A stretch of 38,507 nt of DNA from Candidatus Deferrimicrobiaceae bacterium. Lineage in GTDB: Bacteria; Chloroflexota; Limnocylindria; Limnocylindrales; CSP1-4. Made by a program: the position numbers and the translations under genes. The stretch covers positions 1 to 38,507 of the forward strand of contig DATHRO010000102.1 in NCBI GenBank assembly GCA_035465135.1, given 5' to 3'. The notes under the pieces are model-generated. The model was given only the letters and a program-made list of their open reading frames with translations, was not told where the DNA came from and did no database searches. Positions 24,641-29,811 of the stretch are shown here, in pieces; within the stretch, counting starts at the first letter, position 1, and the number at the start of each line of letters is the position of its first letter.

Positions 24641-25054
24641 ATGCGCGTGACCCTGTCGCTGCGGGGCGACTACGCCGTGCGAACGATGCTCGCTCTCGGC
24701 GAGCACCGGGATGACGGCCTGCTGAGCGCCGGGCGGATCGCCGAGCGGATGCAGATCCCGGTGCGCTTCGTGGCCCACGTCCTGGGTGACCTCGTGCGGG
24801 CCGGCCTCGTCAGCGGCCGACCCGGGCGCCACGGCGGCTATCAGCTCGCCCTACCGGCTCGGCAGATCGACCTGCTGCGGATCGTCGACGCCGCCGAGGA
24901 CCGCGGCGACGTCGCGCGCTGCGTGCTGCGCGGCGGGCCATGCGATCCGAGCGGCCGATGCGCGGTCCACGATGCCTTCGCCGCCGCCAACGAGGCGCTC
25001 CGCAGCGAGCTGGCGGCGAGGCGGCTCTCGGAGCTGGTCGACGGCGGTCGCTGA
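24641..25054 (+). CDS. Rrf2-family transcriptional regulator (NsrR-like by context) with a three-Cys motif
   Basis: AGGAG lies 3 nt upstream of the ATG. MRVTLSLRGDYAVRTMLAL...GRPGRHGGYQL..., with Cys triad CVLRGGPCDPSGRC. Confidence 0.85.
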   Translation: MRVTLSLRGDYAVRTMLALGEHRDDGLLSAGRIAERMQIPVRFVAHVLGDLVRAGLVSGRPGRHGGYQLALPARQIDLLRIVDAAEDRGDVARCVLRGGPCDPSGRCAVHDAFAAANEALRSELAARRLSELVDGGR

Positions 25055-25134: not shown

Positions 25135-25148
25135 CGATATTCATATCG
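25135..25148. promoter_or_regulatory. Palindrome CGATAT-tc-ATATCG inside the only AT-rich patch upstream of nirK, a candidate operator or promoter element
   Basis: Read directly from the sequence. The surrounding bases (about 25117-25150, ccaaaacacgtatctccccgatattcatatcg) are conspicuously AT-rich for this genome. The site lies 80-110 nt upstream of the nirK start. Confidence 0.4.
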
Positions 25149-25227
25149 CGCAACTCACAGTTCGCGGCTACGGAATCGCGGCGCCGCAGGGGACCTTGGA
25201 CGCGGCGTCGATCGGGAGGTCTACGCC

Positions 25228-26748
25228 ATGATCAGGCTCCGCTTCATCGCCTTCGTCGTCGTCGCCGGGCTCGTGGCCGCCTGTGCCCCGACGGCCAGCG
25301 CACCCCACTGGACCTTCCCGCCCGGGAACGTCGTGGACGCCACGTCCCAGCCCAGCTCTGCCCCGACGGCGCCACCGGCCGGCCCGCCCACGACCGCCAC
25401 CAGCGTGGTGCCCGACCTGACGCCGATCGCCGAGCTCGCTACCGCGCCGGCCGATGAGCAGCACGTCGGCTATGCGCCGGGCACGGGCGGCGACCCCATC
25501 AGCCGCGACTACCAGGCTGCATACGAGGTCCGTCTCGAGGTCCTGGAGAATGTCTGCACGATCGACGCCGAGAAGGGCGTCCGCGTTTCGATGTGGGGCT
25601 ATCGCGTCGAAGGCGATGACCAGATCACCTGCGGCACGCCCGGGCCCGTGCTGCGAGGCCGGGTCGGGGACGCGGTCACGATCACGCTGACCAACCTTCC
25701 CGGCAACACCCACCCGCACAACATCGACTTCCATGCCGTGACCGGACAGGGCGGCGGCGCGGCCGACCTGACCGTCGCGCCCGGCGAGACGAAGTCGATC
25801 ATCGTCCGGCTGCTCTATCCCGGCGCGTTCATGTACCACTGCGCCTATGGCGACGTGCCGGTCCACATCATGCACGGCATGTACGGCATGTTCATTGTCG
25901 ATCCTGAGACGCCACTCCCGGCCGTCGCGCACGAGTGGGCGATCATGCAGTCGGAGTGGTACCTGACGACGCCGGACGCGACCGGGCTGGCCGACGTCGA
26001 CAAGGTCACCATGGCGGCCGAGGACCCGACGTACGTCGTCTTCAACGGGGTCATCGGCTCGCTCACCGGTGACAACACGCTCCGGATGGCCGTCGGCGAG
26101 CGGGCGCGAATCTACTTCGTCAACGAGGGCCTGAACCTCAACAGCAACTTCCATCCGATCGGGTCGCACTGGGACGCCGTCTACCCGGAGGCCGCGACGC
26201 TGCCCGGCAACCCGATCATCCGTGGCTCCCAGTCCACGCTCGTGGTCACCGGCGGCGGGACGGTCGTCGAGATCGTCGCGCAGGTGCCCCAGACGATCCT
26301 GTTGGTCGACCACGCCCTCACCCGGACGTTCTACAAGGGCGCCCTTGCCACGATCGTCGTCGACGGCTCGCCCAACCCGGAGATCTTCCAGGCGGCCGGG
26401 GTCGTGCAGCCACCGCCAGCGCAGACGCCGCCCCCGGCGGACGCCGCCCAGGTGACGATCACCAAGGACGGCTGGCTTGACCCGACCAGCGCCGAGAACG
26501 CGTTCGACCCGAACACGATCACGGTTCCCGTCGGCACGACGGTCACCTGGACCAACGGCGACACGACCCTGCACACGGTCACGTCGGGCACGTCGGCCAG
26601 CAACGTGGGCACGCCCGACGGGCGGTTCGACTCCGGCTTCATCGCCGAGGGCGCGACGTTCTCGTACACGTTCACCGAGGCCGGCGAGTTCCCGTACTTC
26701 TGCCTGCCGCATCCGTGGATGATCGGCCAGGTCGTCGTCACGCCCTGA
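25228..26748 (+). CDS. nirK: Copper-containing nitrite reductase (NirK) lipoprotein with a fused C-terminal type-1 cupredoxin domain
   Basis: GGGAGG lies 8 nt upstream of the ATG, and there is a lipobox (LVAAC). NirK ligand motifs are HPHNIDFHAVTG (T1 His, catalytic Asp, T2 His), YHCAYGDVPVHIMHGMYG (T2 His, then T1 Cys, His and Met) and FHPIGSHWD. After a Pro-rich linker (QPPPAQTPPPAD) comes a plastocyanin/amicyanin-like domain of about 100 aa with LHTVTS...YFCLPHPWM (His, Cys, His and Met ligands). Confidence 0.85.
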   Translation: MIRLRFIAFVVVAGLVAACAPTASAPHWTFPPGNVVDATSQPSSAPTAPPAGPPTTATSVVPDLTPIAELATAPADEQHVGYAPGTGGDPISRDYQAAYEVRLEVLENVCTIDAEKGVRVSMWGYRVEGDDQITCGTPGPVLRGRVGDAVTITLTNLPGNTHPHNIDFHAVTGQGGGAADLTVAPGETKSIIVRLLYPGAFMYHCAYGDVPVHIMHGMYGMFIVDPETPLPAVAHEWAIMQSEWYLTTPDATGLADVDKVTMAAEDPTYVVFNGVIGSLTGDNTLRMAVGERARIYFVNEGLNLNSNFHPIGSHWDAVYPEAATLPGNPIIRGSQSTLVVTGGGTVVEIVAQVPQTILLVDHALTRTFYKGALATIVVDGSPNPEIFQAAGVVQPPPAQTPPPADAAQVTITKDGWLDPTSAENAFDPNTITVPVGTTVTWTNGDTTLHTVTSGTSASNVGTPDGRFDSGFIAEGATFSYTFTEAGEFPYFCLPHPWMIGQVVVTP

Positions 26749-26839: not shown

Positions 26840-28159
26840 ATGGACTCCCGGTCACTCCCGCGCCTGCCGGTGGTCGAACGCCCGCCCACCCGGCTTGGCC
26901 CGGACCGCGGGACGGACCGGCGCCTGACCTTCGGCGGGCTCGTGGTGGCCATCGGCTTCCTGGCCGCGGCGCTCGTCTCGCTGCTGCTGCCGGCGGAGGT
27001 TCGCATGGGCTGGTGGCTGCCGCTCCACTTCGCGCTCGCAGGAGCCGCGGGGACGGCGATCGCGGCGATGCTGCCGTTCTTCGTCGCGGCCCTGACCGTC
27101 GCGCCGCCGGCCGCGCCGATCCTCCATGGCGCGGCGATCGGGCTGGTGGCCCACGGTGCAGCGCTGGCCGCGGTCGGTCGGGCCAGTGGCGCGGCGCTTC
27201 CCGACCCGCTCGCCGCCGTCGGCGCGGGAGCCTACGTCGCGGGCGCGGCCGCGGTCGGGCTCGCGGCCGCCATGACCCTGCGGCGCGCGACAGGCCCGCG
27301 GCGACCGGCGACCGAGCTGGCCTACGGGGTCGGGCTCGCGGCCGTCGGGATCGGCGCGGCGCTCGCGGCGCTCTACCTGCTCGGCGCCCCGGAGGTCGTC
27401 CGAGCGTGGCCGTCGCTCCGCGTCGCCCACGCCTGGCTAAACGCGTTCGGGTTCGTGGGCCTCGTCGTCGCGGGGACCCTGCTGCACTTCGCCCCGACTG
27501 TGGTCGGGGCGCGGATCCGGCGGCGGCGCAGCGGCCTCGTCGCCGTCGCCGGGCTGGCCGCCGGCCCGGCGGTGGTTGCGCTCGGCTACGCGGCCGGGGC
27601 GGACCTGGCCGCCCGGCTCGGCGCCCTGGCGACGATCGGGGGCGCAGCCGCCCTGGCGGTCCACGGCGCGCAGGCACAGCGCGACGCGGCGGGCTGGACG
27701 ACCGACTCCGCCTGGCACCGCTTCACGAGCGGCTCGCTCCTGGCCGCGCCAGCCTGGCTGGTCGTCGCGACCTTGGTCGCCGGCCTGCCCGTCGTCGCGG
27801 CCGGTGGGACGCCCATGGCGTGGCGCCTCGAGCCGGTCCTCGCGCCACTCGTGGCCGGCTTCGTCGTCCAGGTCCTGCTCGGCGCCCTGGCCCACCTCGT
27901 CCCGGCGATCGGGCCGGGCGGGCCGGAGCGGCACGCCGACGCACGGCGCATCCTCGGCCGGGACGCGACGCCACGGCTCGCGGCCTGGAACGTCGGGGTC
28001 GCGGCCCTCACGCTCGGCCTGCTAGCCGATCCCGCGAGCGTCGCCGGACCGGTGGCAACCGTCGCCGGCGGCCTGGTCGCGATCGGTGCGGCTTTGGCCG
28101 CGACGAGCCTCGTCGCGGCGCTCGTGCTGCTCGGGCTATGCCTCCGCGACCGTCGGTGA
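26840..28159 (+). CDS. 12-TM membrane protein with intramembrane His residues, possibly NnrS-like
   Basis: I count about 12 hydrophobic segments. His residues sit in TM-like segments: WWLPLHFALAG, HAWLNAFGFVGLVVAGTLLHFAPT, LLGALAHLVP. It lies immediately downstream of nirK. The NnrS assignment rests on topology and context only. Confidence 0.6.
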   Translation: MDSRSLPRLPVVERPPTRLGPDRGTDRRLTFGGLVVAIGFLAAALVSLLLPAEVRMGWWLPLHFALAGAAGTAIAAMLPFFVAALTVAPPAAPILHGAAIGLVAHGAALAAVGRASGAALPDPLAAVGAGAYVAGAAAVGLAAAMTLRRATGPRRPATELAYGVGLAAVGIGAALAALYLLGAPEVVRAWPSLRVAHAWLNAFGFVGLVVAGTLLHFAPTVVGARIRRRRSGLVAVAGLAAGPAVVALGYAAGADLAARLGALATIGGAAALAVHGAQAQRDAAGWTTDSAWHRFTSGSLLAAPAWLVVATLVAGLPVVAAGGTPMAWRLEPVLAPLVAGFVVQVLLGALAHLVPAIGPGGPERHADARRILGRDATPRLAAWNVGVAALTLGLLADPASVAGPVATVAGGLVAIGAALAATSLVAALVLLGLCLRDRR

Positions 28160-28600
28160 GCCGCGGACCCAGACGATCAGCGCGATGACGAATCGGGCGA
28201 TCAGGGACAGCCCGTAGCTCGTGCACCAGACGCACACCGCGCCGATGACGAAGAGCTGCAGGTACATGAAGTAGATCTCGAAGATCACGCCCGCGAGCGA
28301 CAGGCCGTAGTGGGCCAGGAGCAGGGCGTAGAGATCGGTCTTCCACCACGCCACGGCCAGTGACAGGAGCAGCAGCGAGAGGCCGACGCCGAAGACCGCG
28401 ACGGGAATGCCGGCGATCCGGCTGTACTCGCTGCGGGCGACTTCCTCGCAGCCGCCGATCGGGCCGCAGACCGGCACGCCGCCGCCGAGCTCGACAACCG
28501 ACAGATACGACGCGATCGCGAGGCCGACGACGTCGAGGACCGCCAGGATGATCCCCGGGTGGACGCCGAGGATGGGCCTGACGGTCGACCGCCGCATCAC
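28136..28600 (-). CDS. Vitamin K epoxide reductase (VKOR)-family membrane protein
   Basis: Loop Cys pair (PVCGPIGGCEEV) and TM CxxC (CVWC), with 4-5 TM segments. Its start overlaps the dsbA-like stop. Confidence 0.8.
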   Translation of the reverse strand: MMRRSTVRPILGVHPGIILAVLDVVGLAIASYLSVVELGGGVPVCGPIGGCEEVARSEYSRIAGIPVAVFGVGLSLLLLSLAVAWWKTDLYALLLAHYGLSLAGVIFEIYFMYLQLFVIGAVCVWCTSYGLSLIARFVIALIVWVRGSPTVAEA

Positions 28601-29403
28601 GGGTTCGGGCTGGGCGAGGCGGCCGGGGCGGGCGAGGCGAGCGCCTGGATCATGGCCGCGACGTCAGCATACGGCTGCACGCCACTCTGCAGCCGCTGGC
28701 CGTTGAGGACGAGCGTCGGGGTCGAGCCGATGCCGGACGAAAGGGCGGTGCTGGTCTGGCTGCGGATCGCGGCCGCGACGTCCTCGCGCGCGATACAGGC
28801 GTCCCATGCGGCGCGGTCCACGCCGGCGGCGTCGGCCACCCGGGCGATGAACGCCGCGTCGTGGTCACCCCGGTTCTCGCGACCCTGGTTGGCGAACACG
28901 ATGTCGTGGAATTGCCAATAGCGATCCTGCTCTGCGGCGCAGGCCGCGCCGACCGCCAGGCGCAGCGATTCCTCGGATCCGCCGCGATCGATGATCACGA
29001 TGTCACGGGCCTCGATCCGGAGCGTGCCCGGCTTGGCGAACTCGTTCACGAAGCCGGCCAGCTGGTTGGTCACGAACACCTTGCACGCCGGGCACTGGAA
29101 GTCGGAGTAGATCTCCATCACGACCGGGGCATCGGCCGGACCGACGGCCTCGCCGTCGGTCAAGTCCGCGGTGTACGGCATCGCCGGGATCACGAGCTCG
29201 CCCGGCGGCTCGTCGCGCGGCAGGCCGAACAGGATCACGACCACCCCGACGAGCACCGCGACGACCGTGATGATCGCCAGCGGCGACTGCCAGACCGGCC
29301 GGTCCTGGGGCCGTCGCGCCCGCGCTCGCGGGCCGCGGGGCTCGAGTCGCGCCGCGGCGCGCCGCTCGCGACGGGACGGTGGGGGGTTCTGGGAACGGGT
29401 CAC
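28597..29403 (-). CDS. DsbA-family thiol:disulfide oxidoreductase, membrane-anchored
   Basis: An N-terminal TM anchor and the thioredoxin-fold active site FQCPACK. The GTG at 29403 has AGAGG upstream. The longer track start at 29526 adds a stretch with poor third-position GC. Confidence 0.8.
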   Translation of the reverse strand: MTRSQNPPPSRRERRAAARLEPRGPRARARRPQDRPVWQSPLAIITVVAVLVGVVVILFGLPRDEPPGELVIPAMPYTADLTDGEAVGPADAPVVMEIYSDFQCPACKVFVTNQLAGFVNEFAKPGTLRIEARDIVIIDRGGSEESLRLAVGAACAAEQDRYWQFHDIVFANQGRENRGDHDAAFIARVADAAGVDRAAWDACIAREDVAAAIRSQTSTALSSGIGSTPTLVLNGQRLQSGVQPYADVAAMIQALASPAPAASPSPNP

Positions 29404-29811
29404 GGTGTGGCCTCTCAGCGGCAGGAGCGAACTGGGGCGCCGACGGCTTCGGGCCCTCCAAGACGAGCATCCGGGCCGGCCCGGCATCGACGATAGGGCC
29501 GAATCGCCCGCGGCACCCGGGACCATCGGAGGGCTGCGGCCGGGACGATCACCGCATCCGTCGGTGAAACCCGGGACGCGCAGGCTGCCTCACACGGGTA
29601 GTCGACCCGCAACGGTGAGGTCCTCGCATGCAGCACGCCGGCGCCGGGGGCGCGTCGCTGGCTCGCGCGCCGGTCTCTCTAGGATCTCTGCGGCTCGGGC
29701 TCCCGAGCCTCGTGGTCGTCGGTGCCCCGCCGCGCGGGCGATGACGTTCTGGGTCAGGACCGAGGCCGCCATCAGCGCGATCGGCTGACAGGAGCGCCCG
29801 GAAACGAGCGG

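What the first reader, a model, noticed from the sequence alone, without database searches (positions are those of the whole stretch)
25228..26748. NirK with a C-terminally tethered type-1 cupredoxin domain
The core has all the NirK T1 and T2 copper ligands and the catalytic Asp and His context (HNIDFH, HC..., FHPIGSHWD). The Cys-to-His spacing in the T1 loop is one residue shorter than in the classical AxNiR-type sequence as I recall it. After a Pro-rich linker comes an extra plastocyanin/amicyanin-like domain with its own His, Cys, His and Met ligand set (LHTVTS...FCLPHPWM). The tethered-donor NirKs I know of have an N-terminal cupredoxin (Hyphomicrobium type) or a C-terminal cytochrome c (Ralstonia and Pseudoalteromonas type). 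A C-terminal cupredoxin would be a self-contained donor-enzyme fusion with a different topology. The protein is also a predicted lipoprotein.
Basis: partly seen in the sequence, partly recalled or inferred. Interest (0 to 1): 0.6.

Follow-up and report, generated by a model that had tools for sequence, protein, structure and literature searches.

The report
NirK with tethered C-terminal cupredoxin
This gene encodes a membrane-anchored copper nitrite reductase with an extra blue-copper electron-carrier domain fused to its tail; the fusion is real and common in uncultured soil and water bacteria, but one of the same layout was solved in Thermus in 2019, so it is a variant of a known design.

Summary
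ORF 25228-26748 (+) encodes a 506-aa protein made of a lipobox signal peptide, a Pro/Thr tether, a two-domain NirK core, a Pro-rich linker and an amicyanin-like type-1 copper domain. All copper ligands, the catalytic Asp and the catalytic His are invariant in 38 homologues, apart from the core axial Met, which is Leu in one.

The claim of a new topology does not hold. A C-terminal cupredoxin-tethered CuNiR has a crystal structure (TsNirK, PDB 6HBE, 2019). So does a two-domain multicopper oxidase with the same pendant domain (Nmar_1354, PDB 9CCK). This scan also reached the same verdict on another genome.

Three things differ from TsNirK.
- The core is AniA-like (class II), with canonical Met, AspCAT and HisCAT. 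TsNirK has Gln and Ser at those positions.
- On a core tree the family is a well-supported clade far from the Thermus enzyme. An AU test does not exclude a single origin (p = 0.135).
- Inside the clade, near-identical cores carry a cytochrome c domain instead, or no third domain.

The family occurs in at least 521 species genomes, mostly Acidimicrobiia and Chloroflexota MAGs. NCBI names it only as a "plastocyanin/azurin family" protein. An Rrf2 regulator often lies just upstream. No nor, nar or nos gene was found in this 60%-complete genome.

The parts
24641..25054 (+). Rrf2-family regulator with three Cys (C-x6-C-x5-C), directly upstream on the same strand; candidate NO/nitrite-responsive repressor
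   Evidence: Pfam Rrf2 2.9e-30. NCBIfam rrf2_super passes its cutoff; the IscR, RirA and NsrR equivalogs are all below theirs. A homologue lies within 4 kb of nirK, mostly directly upstream, in 34 of 91 family loci.
25135..25148 (.). AT-rich inverted repeat CGATAT-TC-ATATCG about 80 nt upstream of the start codon; candidate Rrf2 operator
   Evidence: Sequence. The GATATT core is invariant in the three syntenic relatives, in an otherwise poorly conserved spacer. Function is inferred.
25214..25219 (+). Ribosome-binding site GGGAGG, 8 nt before the ATG
   Evidence: GGGAGG is kept in L014 and L015.
25228..25284 (+). Sec-type lipoprotein signal peptide ending in lipobox V-A-A-C19
   Evidence: Translation. 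AF2 models a helix at residues 2-19. The lipobox Cys is kept in the closest homologues, while other family members have an uncleaved TM anchor instead.
25285..25410 (+). Pro/Thr/Ser/Ala-rich flexible N-terminal tether (residues 20-61)
   Evidence: pLDDT below 50 for residues 20-49. This region varies in length and sequence in A1.
25411..26394 (+). Two-domain NirK catalytic core (residues 62-389): T1Cu H164/C205/H213/M218; T2Cu H169/H204/H362; AspCAT D167; HisCAT H309; family-specific invariant Cys pair C110/C135
   Evidence: Foldseek gives AniA a TM-score (target) of 0.87 at 41% identity.
26395..26448 (+). Pro-rich inter-domain linker (residues 390-407, AGVVQPPPAQTPPPADAA)
   Evidence: pLDDT dips at residues 391-394. 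The T2-His to C-terminal T1-His spacing is 87 residues here, against 86-130 (median 90) in 72 relatives. The cytochrome c variants diverge exactly at this point.
26449..26745 (+). C-terminal amicyanin/plastocyanin-like type-1 copper domain (residues 408-506): H449, C492, H495, M498
   Evidence: PF00127 7e-16. PDB matches: 9CCK 2.6e-21, 5FC9 1e-13, amicyanins about 1e-11, 6HBE 9e-10. pLDDT is 92-98. The ligands are invariant.

Best explanation
The gene encodes a functional NO-forming copper nitrite reductase, probably homotrimeric. It is lipid-anchored through Cys19 and a flexible tether to the outer face of the cytoplasmic membrane.

The core is a class II (AniA-type) NirK and works in the canonical way. 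Nitrite binds T2Cu at the subunit interface. D167 and H309 supply protons. An electron arrives from the core T1Cu through the Cys205-His204 bridge.

The C-terminal amicyanin-like domain is a covalently tethered electron-entry module. It would take an electron from a membrane-associated donor and pass it on as T1Cu(C) -> T1Cu(core) -> T2Cu. The short Pro-rich linker keeps it within reach.

Expression is probably controlled by the adjacent Fe-S-type Rrf2 regulator through the conserved AT-rich palindrome.

Shown: the domain anatomy, ligand conservation, recurrence of the fusion, modular exchange of the third domain and the Rrf2 linkage. Inferred: trimer formation, the electron path, the identity of the upstream donor and the regulatory logic.
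For: - Complete and invariant NirK ligand and catalytic set, with an AniA-like fold.
- The sequence after the T1 Cys is H-C-A, not the H-C-H of multicopper oxidases, so there is no trinuclear site.
- Complete and invariant His/Cys/His/Met set in a confidently folded C-terminal cupredoxin.
- The fusion is in frame in 76 loci of a clade with 100/100 support.
- Within that clade five members carry a class I cytochrome c domain (Pfam PF13442/PF00034) after the same junction. Their cores are 63-70% identical to this one. A few members have no third domain. This is the pattern expected of an interchangeable electron-donor module.
- The two solved proteins with this layout place the pendant T1Cu 14.1 Å (TsNirK) and 13.5 Å (Nmar_1354) from the core T1Cu, with linkers of 26 and 15 residues. 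These bracket the roughly 18 residues here.
- An Rrf2 gene lies upstream in 34 of 91 loci, and the palindrome is conserved.
Against: - There are no biochemical data for any member of this family.
- The AF2 monomer model does not place the third domain reliably (pTM 0.65). Alignments to 6HBE and 9CCK span all three domains but at rmsd 22-26 Å, so reachability is inferred from linker length only.
- In HdNiR a tethered cupredoxin sits about 24 Å from the core T1Cu, and its role in electron transfer is disputed.
- Tethered CuNiRs are reported to be slower than two-domain enzymes.
- TIGR02376 scores 248 bits, below its 296-bit cutoff.
- No nor, nar or nos gene was found in the genome, though it is only 60% complete. 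The physiological role (respiration, detoxification or NO production) is therefore open.
Confidence: 0.75

Rival explanations
1. The enzyme is a genuine NirK, but the C-terminal cupredoxin is not on the productive electron path. It would instead serve a regulatory, protective or oligomerisation role. Examples are gating substrate access, protecting against reductive inactivation, or docking trimers together, as proposed for the N-terminal cupredoxin of HdNiR.
For: In HdNiR the tethered T1Cu is about 24 Å from the core and its role is disputed. [quoted passage not shown] Two-domain members nested in the clade show that the core can do without the domain.
Against: All four copper ligands of the extra domain are invariant. 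Replacement by a cytochrome c at the same junction points to redox function as the selected property. The two solved C-terminal cases place the pendant T1Cu 13.5-14.1 Å from the core T1Cu.
Confidence: 0.12
2. The protein does not mainly reduce nitrite in vivo. It would run a different nitrogen-oxide reaction, such as NO or hydroxylamine oxidation, passing electrons outward through the pendant cupredoxin. This has been discussed for nitrifier NirK homologues and shown for NH2OH oxidation by Nmar_1354.
For: The extra domain's best PDB match is the pendant cupredoxin of Nmar_1354. The partial genome shows one cytochrome oxidase subunit I and no nor, nar or nos gene. Pold et al. 2024 report that the NirK clade holding most Actinobacteriota sequences rarely co-occurs with the rest of denitrification; whether this family belongs to that clade was not tested.
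Against: The core has the mononuclear T2Cu site with AspCAT and HisCAT of nitrite reductases, not the trinuclear cluster of Nmar_1354. Its nearest characterised relatives (AniA, RpNiR, haloarchaeal NirK, 40-46% identity) are nitrite reductases. The genome is only 60% complete.
Confidence: 0.08
3. The fusion is an artefact: an assembly chimera, or a missed stop or frameshift that joins nirK to a separate cupredoxin gene.
For: The window comes from a fragmented MAG (168 contigs). One relative (L008) does show a frameshift in the linker.
Against: The frame is open across the junction. The same fusion occurs in 76 loci from many independent assemblies, including contigs over 1 Mb and complete chromosomes. 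All of the top 120 protein hits carry PF00127 at the C-terminus.
Confidence: 0.01

Closest known systems
[quoted passage not shown] 2019, PMC6400189)
   Same: Same domain order: a two-domain NirK core, a linker and a C-terminal His/Cys/His/Met type-1 copper cupredoxin, giving three Cu per monomer. The proposed path is T1CuC -> T1CuN -> T2Cu.
   Different: Only 30% identity with 18% gaps to a T. thermophilus orthologue. In TsNirK the core T1Cu has an axial Gln and AspCAT is replaced by Ser; here they are canonical Met218 and Asp167. The Thermus inter-domain segment is longer. TsNirK sits beside nirS in a denitrification cluster. On the core tree it lies outside AniA, RpNiR, haloarchaeal and class I NirKs, though one clade with this family is not rejected (AU p = 0.135). 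It has no lipobox.
AniA, the class II lipoprotein NirK of Neisseria gonorrhoeae (PDB 1KBV, 5TB7, 5UE6)
   Same: Best sequence match (5e-70, about 42% identity) and best structural match (TM 0.87) to the core. It has the same C-x7-H T1 loop spacing, and is a lipoprotein with a flexible N-terminal tether.
   Different: AniA is a two-domain enzyme with no tethered donor and is anchored in the outer membrane of a diderm. This family has an extra loop carrying the invariant C110/C135 pair.
RpNiR and PhNiR, C-terminal cytochrome c-tethered CuNiRs (PDB 3ZIY, 2ZOO)
   Same: Second-best core matches (about 1e-60, 38-39% identity). They have a canonical Met/AspCAT/HisCAT core with a C-terminally tethered donor. 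Five members of this very family carry a cytochrome c domain instead of the cupredoxin.
   Different: Their donor is a haem c domain, not a copper domain, and the linker is 36 residues in RpNiR.
Nmar_1354 (MCO4), a two-domain multicopper oxidase with a 'dangling' C-terminal cupredoxin from Nitrosopumilus maritimus (PDB 9CCK; PMC11761707)
   Same: Best PDB match of the C-terminal domain (2.6e-21), including the shared DxW...TVTWTN.D...HTVT...HPWM pattern. It also has a short unstructured linker (15 aa).
   Different: Its core has a T2/T3 trinuclear cluster and oxidises hydroxylamine with O2. The core here is a mononuclear-T2 NirK (H-C-A, not H-C-H).
HdNiR, the N-terminal cupredoxin-tethered CuNiR of Hyphomicrobium denitrificans (PDB 2DV6, 6TFD)
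   Same: A NirK core plus one extra T1Cu cupredoxin.
   Different: The extra domain is N-terminal, the enzyme is a hexamer, and the extra T1Cu is about 24 Å from the core T1Cu.

Membership tests
Copper-containing nitrite reductase (NirK / CuNiR) | Type-1 Cu ligands His-Cys-His-Met in domain I | tested here: met
   H164, C205, H213 and M218 align with the AniA ligands. H164, C205 and H213 are invariant and M218 is nearly invariant in A1. The axial residue is Met in 90 of 90 loci.
Copper-containing nitrite reductase (NirK / CuNiR) | Type-2 Cu ligands (three His, one from the adjacent subunit's domain II) and the Cys-His bridge | tested here: met
   H169, H204 (adjacent to C205) and H362 are invariant.
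Copper-containing nitrite reductase (NirK / CuNiR) | Catalytic AspCAT and HisCAT (plus the Ile gate) | tested here: met
   D167 in HNIDFH, and H309 and I311 in NFHPIG, are invariant. The H-N-x-D-x-H motif is present in 90 of 90 loci.
Copper-containing nitrite reductase (NirK / CuNiR) | Score above the curated cutoff of the equivalog model TIGR02376 | tested here: not met
   248.4 bits against a cutoff of 296.3. This explains NCBI's generic names for the family. It reflects model calibration and does not mean a feature is missing.
Copper-containing nitrite reductase (NirK / CuNiR) | Homotrimer with T2Cu at subunit interfaces; nitrite to NO activity | not testable with these tools
   Only a monomer model could be made. 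No assay was possible.
Class II / clade II NirK (AniA type) | Shortened T1 loop (C-x7-H) and clade II-type motif around HisCAT (SSFHV/I/P and variants such as SNFHP) | tested here: met
   CAYGDVPVH is C-x7-H, against C-x8-H in S. meliloti class I. The motif here is SNFHP; Decleyre et al. list SNFHV/I/P among clade II motifs. The best structure is AniA.
C-terminal cupredoxin-tethered CuNiR (TsNirK type) | Third domain is a C-terminal cupredoxin with its own T1Cu ligand set | tested here: met
   PF00127 at residues 424-504, with H449, C492, H495 and M498 invariant.
C-terminal cupredoxin-tethered CuNiR (TsNirK type) | Gln axial ligand at the core T1Cu and Ser in place of AspCAT (the 'unique sensing loop') | tested here: not met
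   Met218 and Asp167 here. The Thermus orthologue has Q and S at the aligned positions.
C-terminal cupredoxin-tethered CuNiR (TsNirK type) | Common descent with the TsNirK cluster (one fusion event) | tested here: inconclusive
   The free tree separates them by branches with 100/98 and 100/100 support. Forcing one clade costs 13.2 lnL units, with AU p = 0.135, so it is not rejected. The Thermus row is a very long branch.
Plastocyanin/amicyanin-type cupredoxin (Pfam PF00127) | Domain match above cutoff, plus His ... Cys-x2-His-x2-Met ligands | tested here: met
   58.9 bits against a cutoff of 21.2. FCLPHPWM resembles the amicyanin CTPHPFM motif. The amicyanin and plastocyanin equivalog models are below their cutoffs, so this is not an orthologue of either.
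Two-domain multicopper oxidase with pendant cupredoxin (MCO4 / Nmar_1354) | T2/T3 trinuclear copper cluster (H-C-H after the T1 Cys, four HxH motifs) | tested here: not met
   The sequence is Y-H-C-A, with no H-C-H. The 9CCK match is driven by the C-terminal domain (best stretch residues 404-504).
Bacterial lipoprotein (Sec/SPII) | n-region, h-region and lipobox [LVI][ASTVI][GAS]C | tested here: met
   MIRLR-FIAFVVVAGL-VAAC19. The Cys is kept in the nearest homologues. Cleavage and acylation cannot be tested here, and no SignalP-type tool was available.

The most novel reading that the evidence does not exclude
This Acidimicrobiia/Chloroflexota family is an independent invention of C-terminal cupredoxin tethering on a canonical AniA-type core. 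It is also a natural module-swap series: cupredoxin, cytochrome c or no third domain, on cores 60-70% identical and joined at one junction. The hosts are largely aerobic organisms without the rest of denitrification. If so, tethering evolved repeatedly as a general way to wire NirK to different respiratory chains. The enzyme's in vivo role in these abundant soil and freshwater lineages might then be NO generation or nitrite detoxification, not respiration.
Probability: 0.3. Interest if true: 0.5.

Novelty: new variant of a known kind. Interest (0 to 1): 0.35.

Why it matters
The role of tethered donor domains in CuNiRs is still debated. The 2026 RpNiR paper asks whether they are functional partners at all. 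The only characterised C-terminal cupredoxin example, TsNirK, has an atypical active site.

This family offers the same tethering on a textbook catalytic core, with natural cytochrome c-swapped and untethered siblings. That makes it a clean comparative system.

There is also a practical point for nitrogen-cycle surveys. The family is present in at least 521 species-level genomes of abundant uncultured Acidimicrobiia and Chloroflexota. It falls below the NCBIfam NirK cutoff and is named only 'plastocyanin/azurin family copper-binding protein' by NCBI. Annotation-based nirK counts may therefore miss it.

Tried and rejected
- **Third-domain geometry.** I tried to judge whether the third domain docks as in TsNirK, using the AF2 model. 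Only a monomer could be modelled (pTM 0.65). Foldseek alignments to 6HBE and 9CCK cover all three domains at rmsd 22-26 Å, so nothing can be concluded about geometry.
- **Independent origin from TsNirK.** The tree favours it, but the AU test does not reject a single clade (p = 0.135). I do not claim it as shown.
- **Downstream 12-TM protein as NnrS.** There was no Pfam or NCBIfam hit, and PF05940 gives no match in the genome even at E <= 1. The gene follows nirK in only 3 of 91 loci. It is not treated as part of the system.
- **Denitrification partners in the genome.** I found one COX1-type oxidase and no narG or Sec-type nosZ. This is absence in a 60%-complete MAG, so it is weak evidence.
- **Plasmid collection.** No record covers at least 80% of the query, so there was no annotated full-length homologue to borrow a name from.
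- **Literature.** Searches for this specific family (NirK + Acidimicrobiia + cupredoxin) returned nothing. The library lacks most subscription journals, so this is not proof that the family is undescribed.
Full report
**The object.** The window is 70-75% G+C. ORF 25228-26748 (+) starts at an ATG 8 nt after GGGAGG and encodes 506 residues. From the N-terminus it contains:
- a Sec-type lipoprotein signal (MIRLR, a hydrophobic helix, lipobox VAAC19);
- a disordered Pro/Thr/Ser-rich tether (pLDDT below 50 for residues 20-49);
- a two-domain cupredoxin core (residues about 62-389);
- a Pro-rich linker (390-407);
- a roughly 100-residue cupredoxin (408-506).

**Domain and ligand check.**
- Pfam finds multicopper-oxidase domains at residues 136-227 and PF00127 at 424-504.
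- NCBIfam TIGR02376 (Cu nitrite reductase) matches residues 89-389 at 1e-73, but at 248 bits it is below its 296-bit cutoff.
- The best solved relatives of the core are AniA (5e-70), then the cytochrome c-tethered RpNiR and PhNiR (about 1e-60).
- Foldseek on an AlphaFold2 model (mean pLDDT 80.7) ranks AniA first (TM 0.87, 41% identity).
- In a 38-sequence alignment of homologues at 57-81% identity, every functional residue but one is invariant: core T1Cu H164/C205/H213, T2Cu H169/H204/H362, AspCAT D167, HisCAT H309, and C-terminal T1Cu H449/C492/H495/M498. The exception is the core axial ligand M218, which is Leu in one sequence.
- In 90 family loci the core axial ligand is always Met and H-N-x-D-x-H is always present.
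- The sequence after the T1 Cys is H-C-A, not H-C-H, so there is no trinuclear oxidase site.
The Ralstonia cyt c-fused and haloarchaeal NirKs share it, and so does AniA. It is the ordinary class II state.

**Is the architecture new? No.**
- The PDB holds TsNirK (6HBE), a NirK with a C-terminal T1Cu cupredoxin 14.1 Å from the core T1Cu.
- Later papers list it as the C-terminal cupredoxin class.
- The best PDB match of the extra domain (2.6e-21) is the pendant C-terminal cupredoxin of Nmar_1354 (9CCK). That protein is a two-domain multicopper oxidase with a 15-residue linker and a 13.5 Å T1-T1 distance.
- This scan had already followed up the same kind of protein in another genome and reached the same verdict (e1-5098819). 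I reached mine independently before seeing that note.

**How common is it?**
- The protein search returned 1423 hits at E <= 1e-10. The top 120 (58-91% identity, about 450-540 aa) all carry PF00127 at the C-terminus. JGI names them 'nitrite reductase (NO-forming)', while NCBI names them 'plastocyanin/azurin family copper-binding protein' or 'cupredoxin domain-containing protein'.
- A scan of one genome per GTDB species found 521 relatives. The best 80 are all MAGs: mostly Acidimicrobiia, plus Chloroflexota/Thermomicrobiales and Nitriliruptoraceae.
- The nearest relatives (76-81% identity) are three MAGs titled Chloroflexi/Chloroflexia. They share the window's synteny: MMPL, CrtC-like lipoprotein, Rrf2, nirK, (12-TM), VKOR, DsbA.
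- Within the window's own class the gene is patchy. About 13 of 300 sampled genomes have a strong match, and none of the nine other sampled species of its genus does.

**What is different from TsNirK.** I obtained a Thermus thermophilus plasmid orthologue of TsNirK (L108:2932-4308, annotated 'hypothetical protein', next to nirS). It shows the published TsNirK hallmarks: an axial Gln, no AspCAT and a C-terminal CSIHPYM motif. It is 30% identical to the window protein with 18% gaps. Ser and Gln align with D167 and M218.

On a core-only maximum-likelihood tree the window's family is a 100/100 clade. It groups with AniA, a Ralstonia cyt c-NirK, a haloarchaeal NirK, a class I NirK and two-domain NirKs from the same class. 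The Thermus protein lies outside all of these. This favours an independent fusion. However, the Thermus row is a very long branch, and the AU test does not reject a single clade (delta lnL 13.2, p = 0.135). I report independence as likely, not shown.

**Modularity inside the family.** I scored the architecture of 104 loci holding family members and outgroup proteins:
- 76 have the in-frame cupredoxin, and one more has it after a frameshift.
- 5 have a C-terminal cytochrome c instead (CxxCH; Pfam PF13442/PF00034).
- 18 are two-domain. Four of these lie within the family; the rest are outgroup proteins from the same class.
- The remaining 4 are truncated by contig ends or could not be classified.

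The cupredoxin form occurs in both basal branches of the clade. The cytochrome c and two-domain forms are nested among cupredoxin forms. One cytochrome c sibling is 63% identical to the window protein up to the end of the core ('PEIF') and unrelated after it. The simplest reading is an ancestral cupredoxin tether with later replacement or loss, although the trees cannot by themselves tell gain from loss. Exchange of one redox carrier for another at a fixed junction is what a tethered electron-donor module predicts.

**Linker.** The spacing between the T2 His of domain II and the first His of the C-terminal T1 site is 87 residues here. It ranges from 86 to 130 (median 90) in 72 relatives. The linker is therefore short here but variable and low-complexity across the family. 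That suggests a flexible tether, not a fixed packed segment. At about 18 residues it lies between the linkers of the two solved examples (15 and 26), so reach is plausible. Geometry could not be tested.

**Context and physiology.**
- An Rrf2 regulator with three Cys lies directly upstream. A homologue lies within 4 kb of nirK, mostly directly upstream, in 34 of 91 loci.
- An AT-rich inverted repeat (25135-25148) is conserved in the three syntenic relatives.
- The downstream 12-TM protein has no family match and is rarely linked to nirK.
- The 60%-complete genome shows one COX1-type oxidase and no narG or nosZ.
- Pold et al. 2024 report that the NirK clade holding most Actinobacteriota sequences seldom co-occurs with Nor or NosZ. 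Whether this family belongs to that clade was not tested.
- Whether the enzyme serves respiration, nitrite detoxification or NO production is open.

**Verdict.** This is a canonical-core, lipoprotein variant of the known C-terminal cupredoxin-tethered CuNiR class. It belongs to a large, uncharacterised, poorly annotated family with natural cytochrome c and untethered siblings. Interest is moderate to low.

Noticed in passing
L082:3824-5311, L089:3878-5308, L079, L083, L084 (Acidimicrobiia MAGs): Members of the same NirK clade, with cores 63-70% identical to the window's, carry a C-terminal class I cytochrome c domain in place of the cupredoxin. It is joined at the same point after the core.
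   Followed up: yes
window 26840-28159 (+): A 439-aa multi-pass membrane protein directly downstream of nirK. It has no Pfam or NCBIfam match and no NnrS similarity. A homologue follows nirK in only 3 of 91 loci (L014, L004, L007).
   Followed up: partly
window 25135-25148: The AT-rich inverted repeat CGATAT-TC-ATATCG upstream of nirK is conserved (GATATT invariant) in the three syntenic Chloroflexi-labelled MAGs. The rest of the spacer is not conserved. It is a candidate Rrf2 operator.
   Followed up: partly
window 25555-25557 and 25630-25632 (C110, C135); 28136-29589 (-): Two Cys in a family-specific loop of NirK domain I are invariant in 38 homologues and are probably a disulfide. The neighbouring genes on the other strand are VKOR and a DsbA-like thioredoxin, that is, disulfide-forming machinery. 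The pairing is syntenic in the closest relatives.
   Followed up: no
L108:2932-4308 (Thermus thermophilus TF19 plasmid pTF19b, AP031324.1): A clear orthologue of the structurally solved TsNirK (axial Gln, no AspCAT, C-terminal CSIHPYM) lies next to nirS. It is annotated only as 'hypothetical protein'.
   Followed up: partly
L109:1929-3088 (Halorussus vallis plasmid NZ_CP100002.1): A NirK-like core split by a frameshift (frames 2 and 1) runs into a region annotated as 'halocyanin domain-containing protein' that holds a C-x2-H-x2-M motif. This may be a decayed or mis-sequenced haloarchaeal NirK-cupredoxin fusion.
   Followed up: no
L067 (Ca. Azotimanducaceae, Pseudomonadota) and L092 (Ca. Spechtbacterales, Minisyncoccota): Family members sit in MAGs with unexpected taxonomic labels. 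L067 is nearly identical to an Ilumatobacter copy (L063). This points to mis-binning or very recent transfer.
   Followed up: no
P0001 against NCBIfam TIGR02376: The family scores below the curated NirK equivalog cutoff (248 against 296 bits). NCBI therefore names it as a generic plastocyanin/azurin-family protein, and annotation-based nirK counts may miss it.
   Followed up: partly
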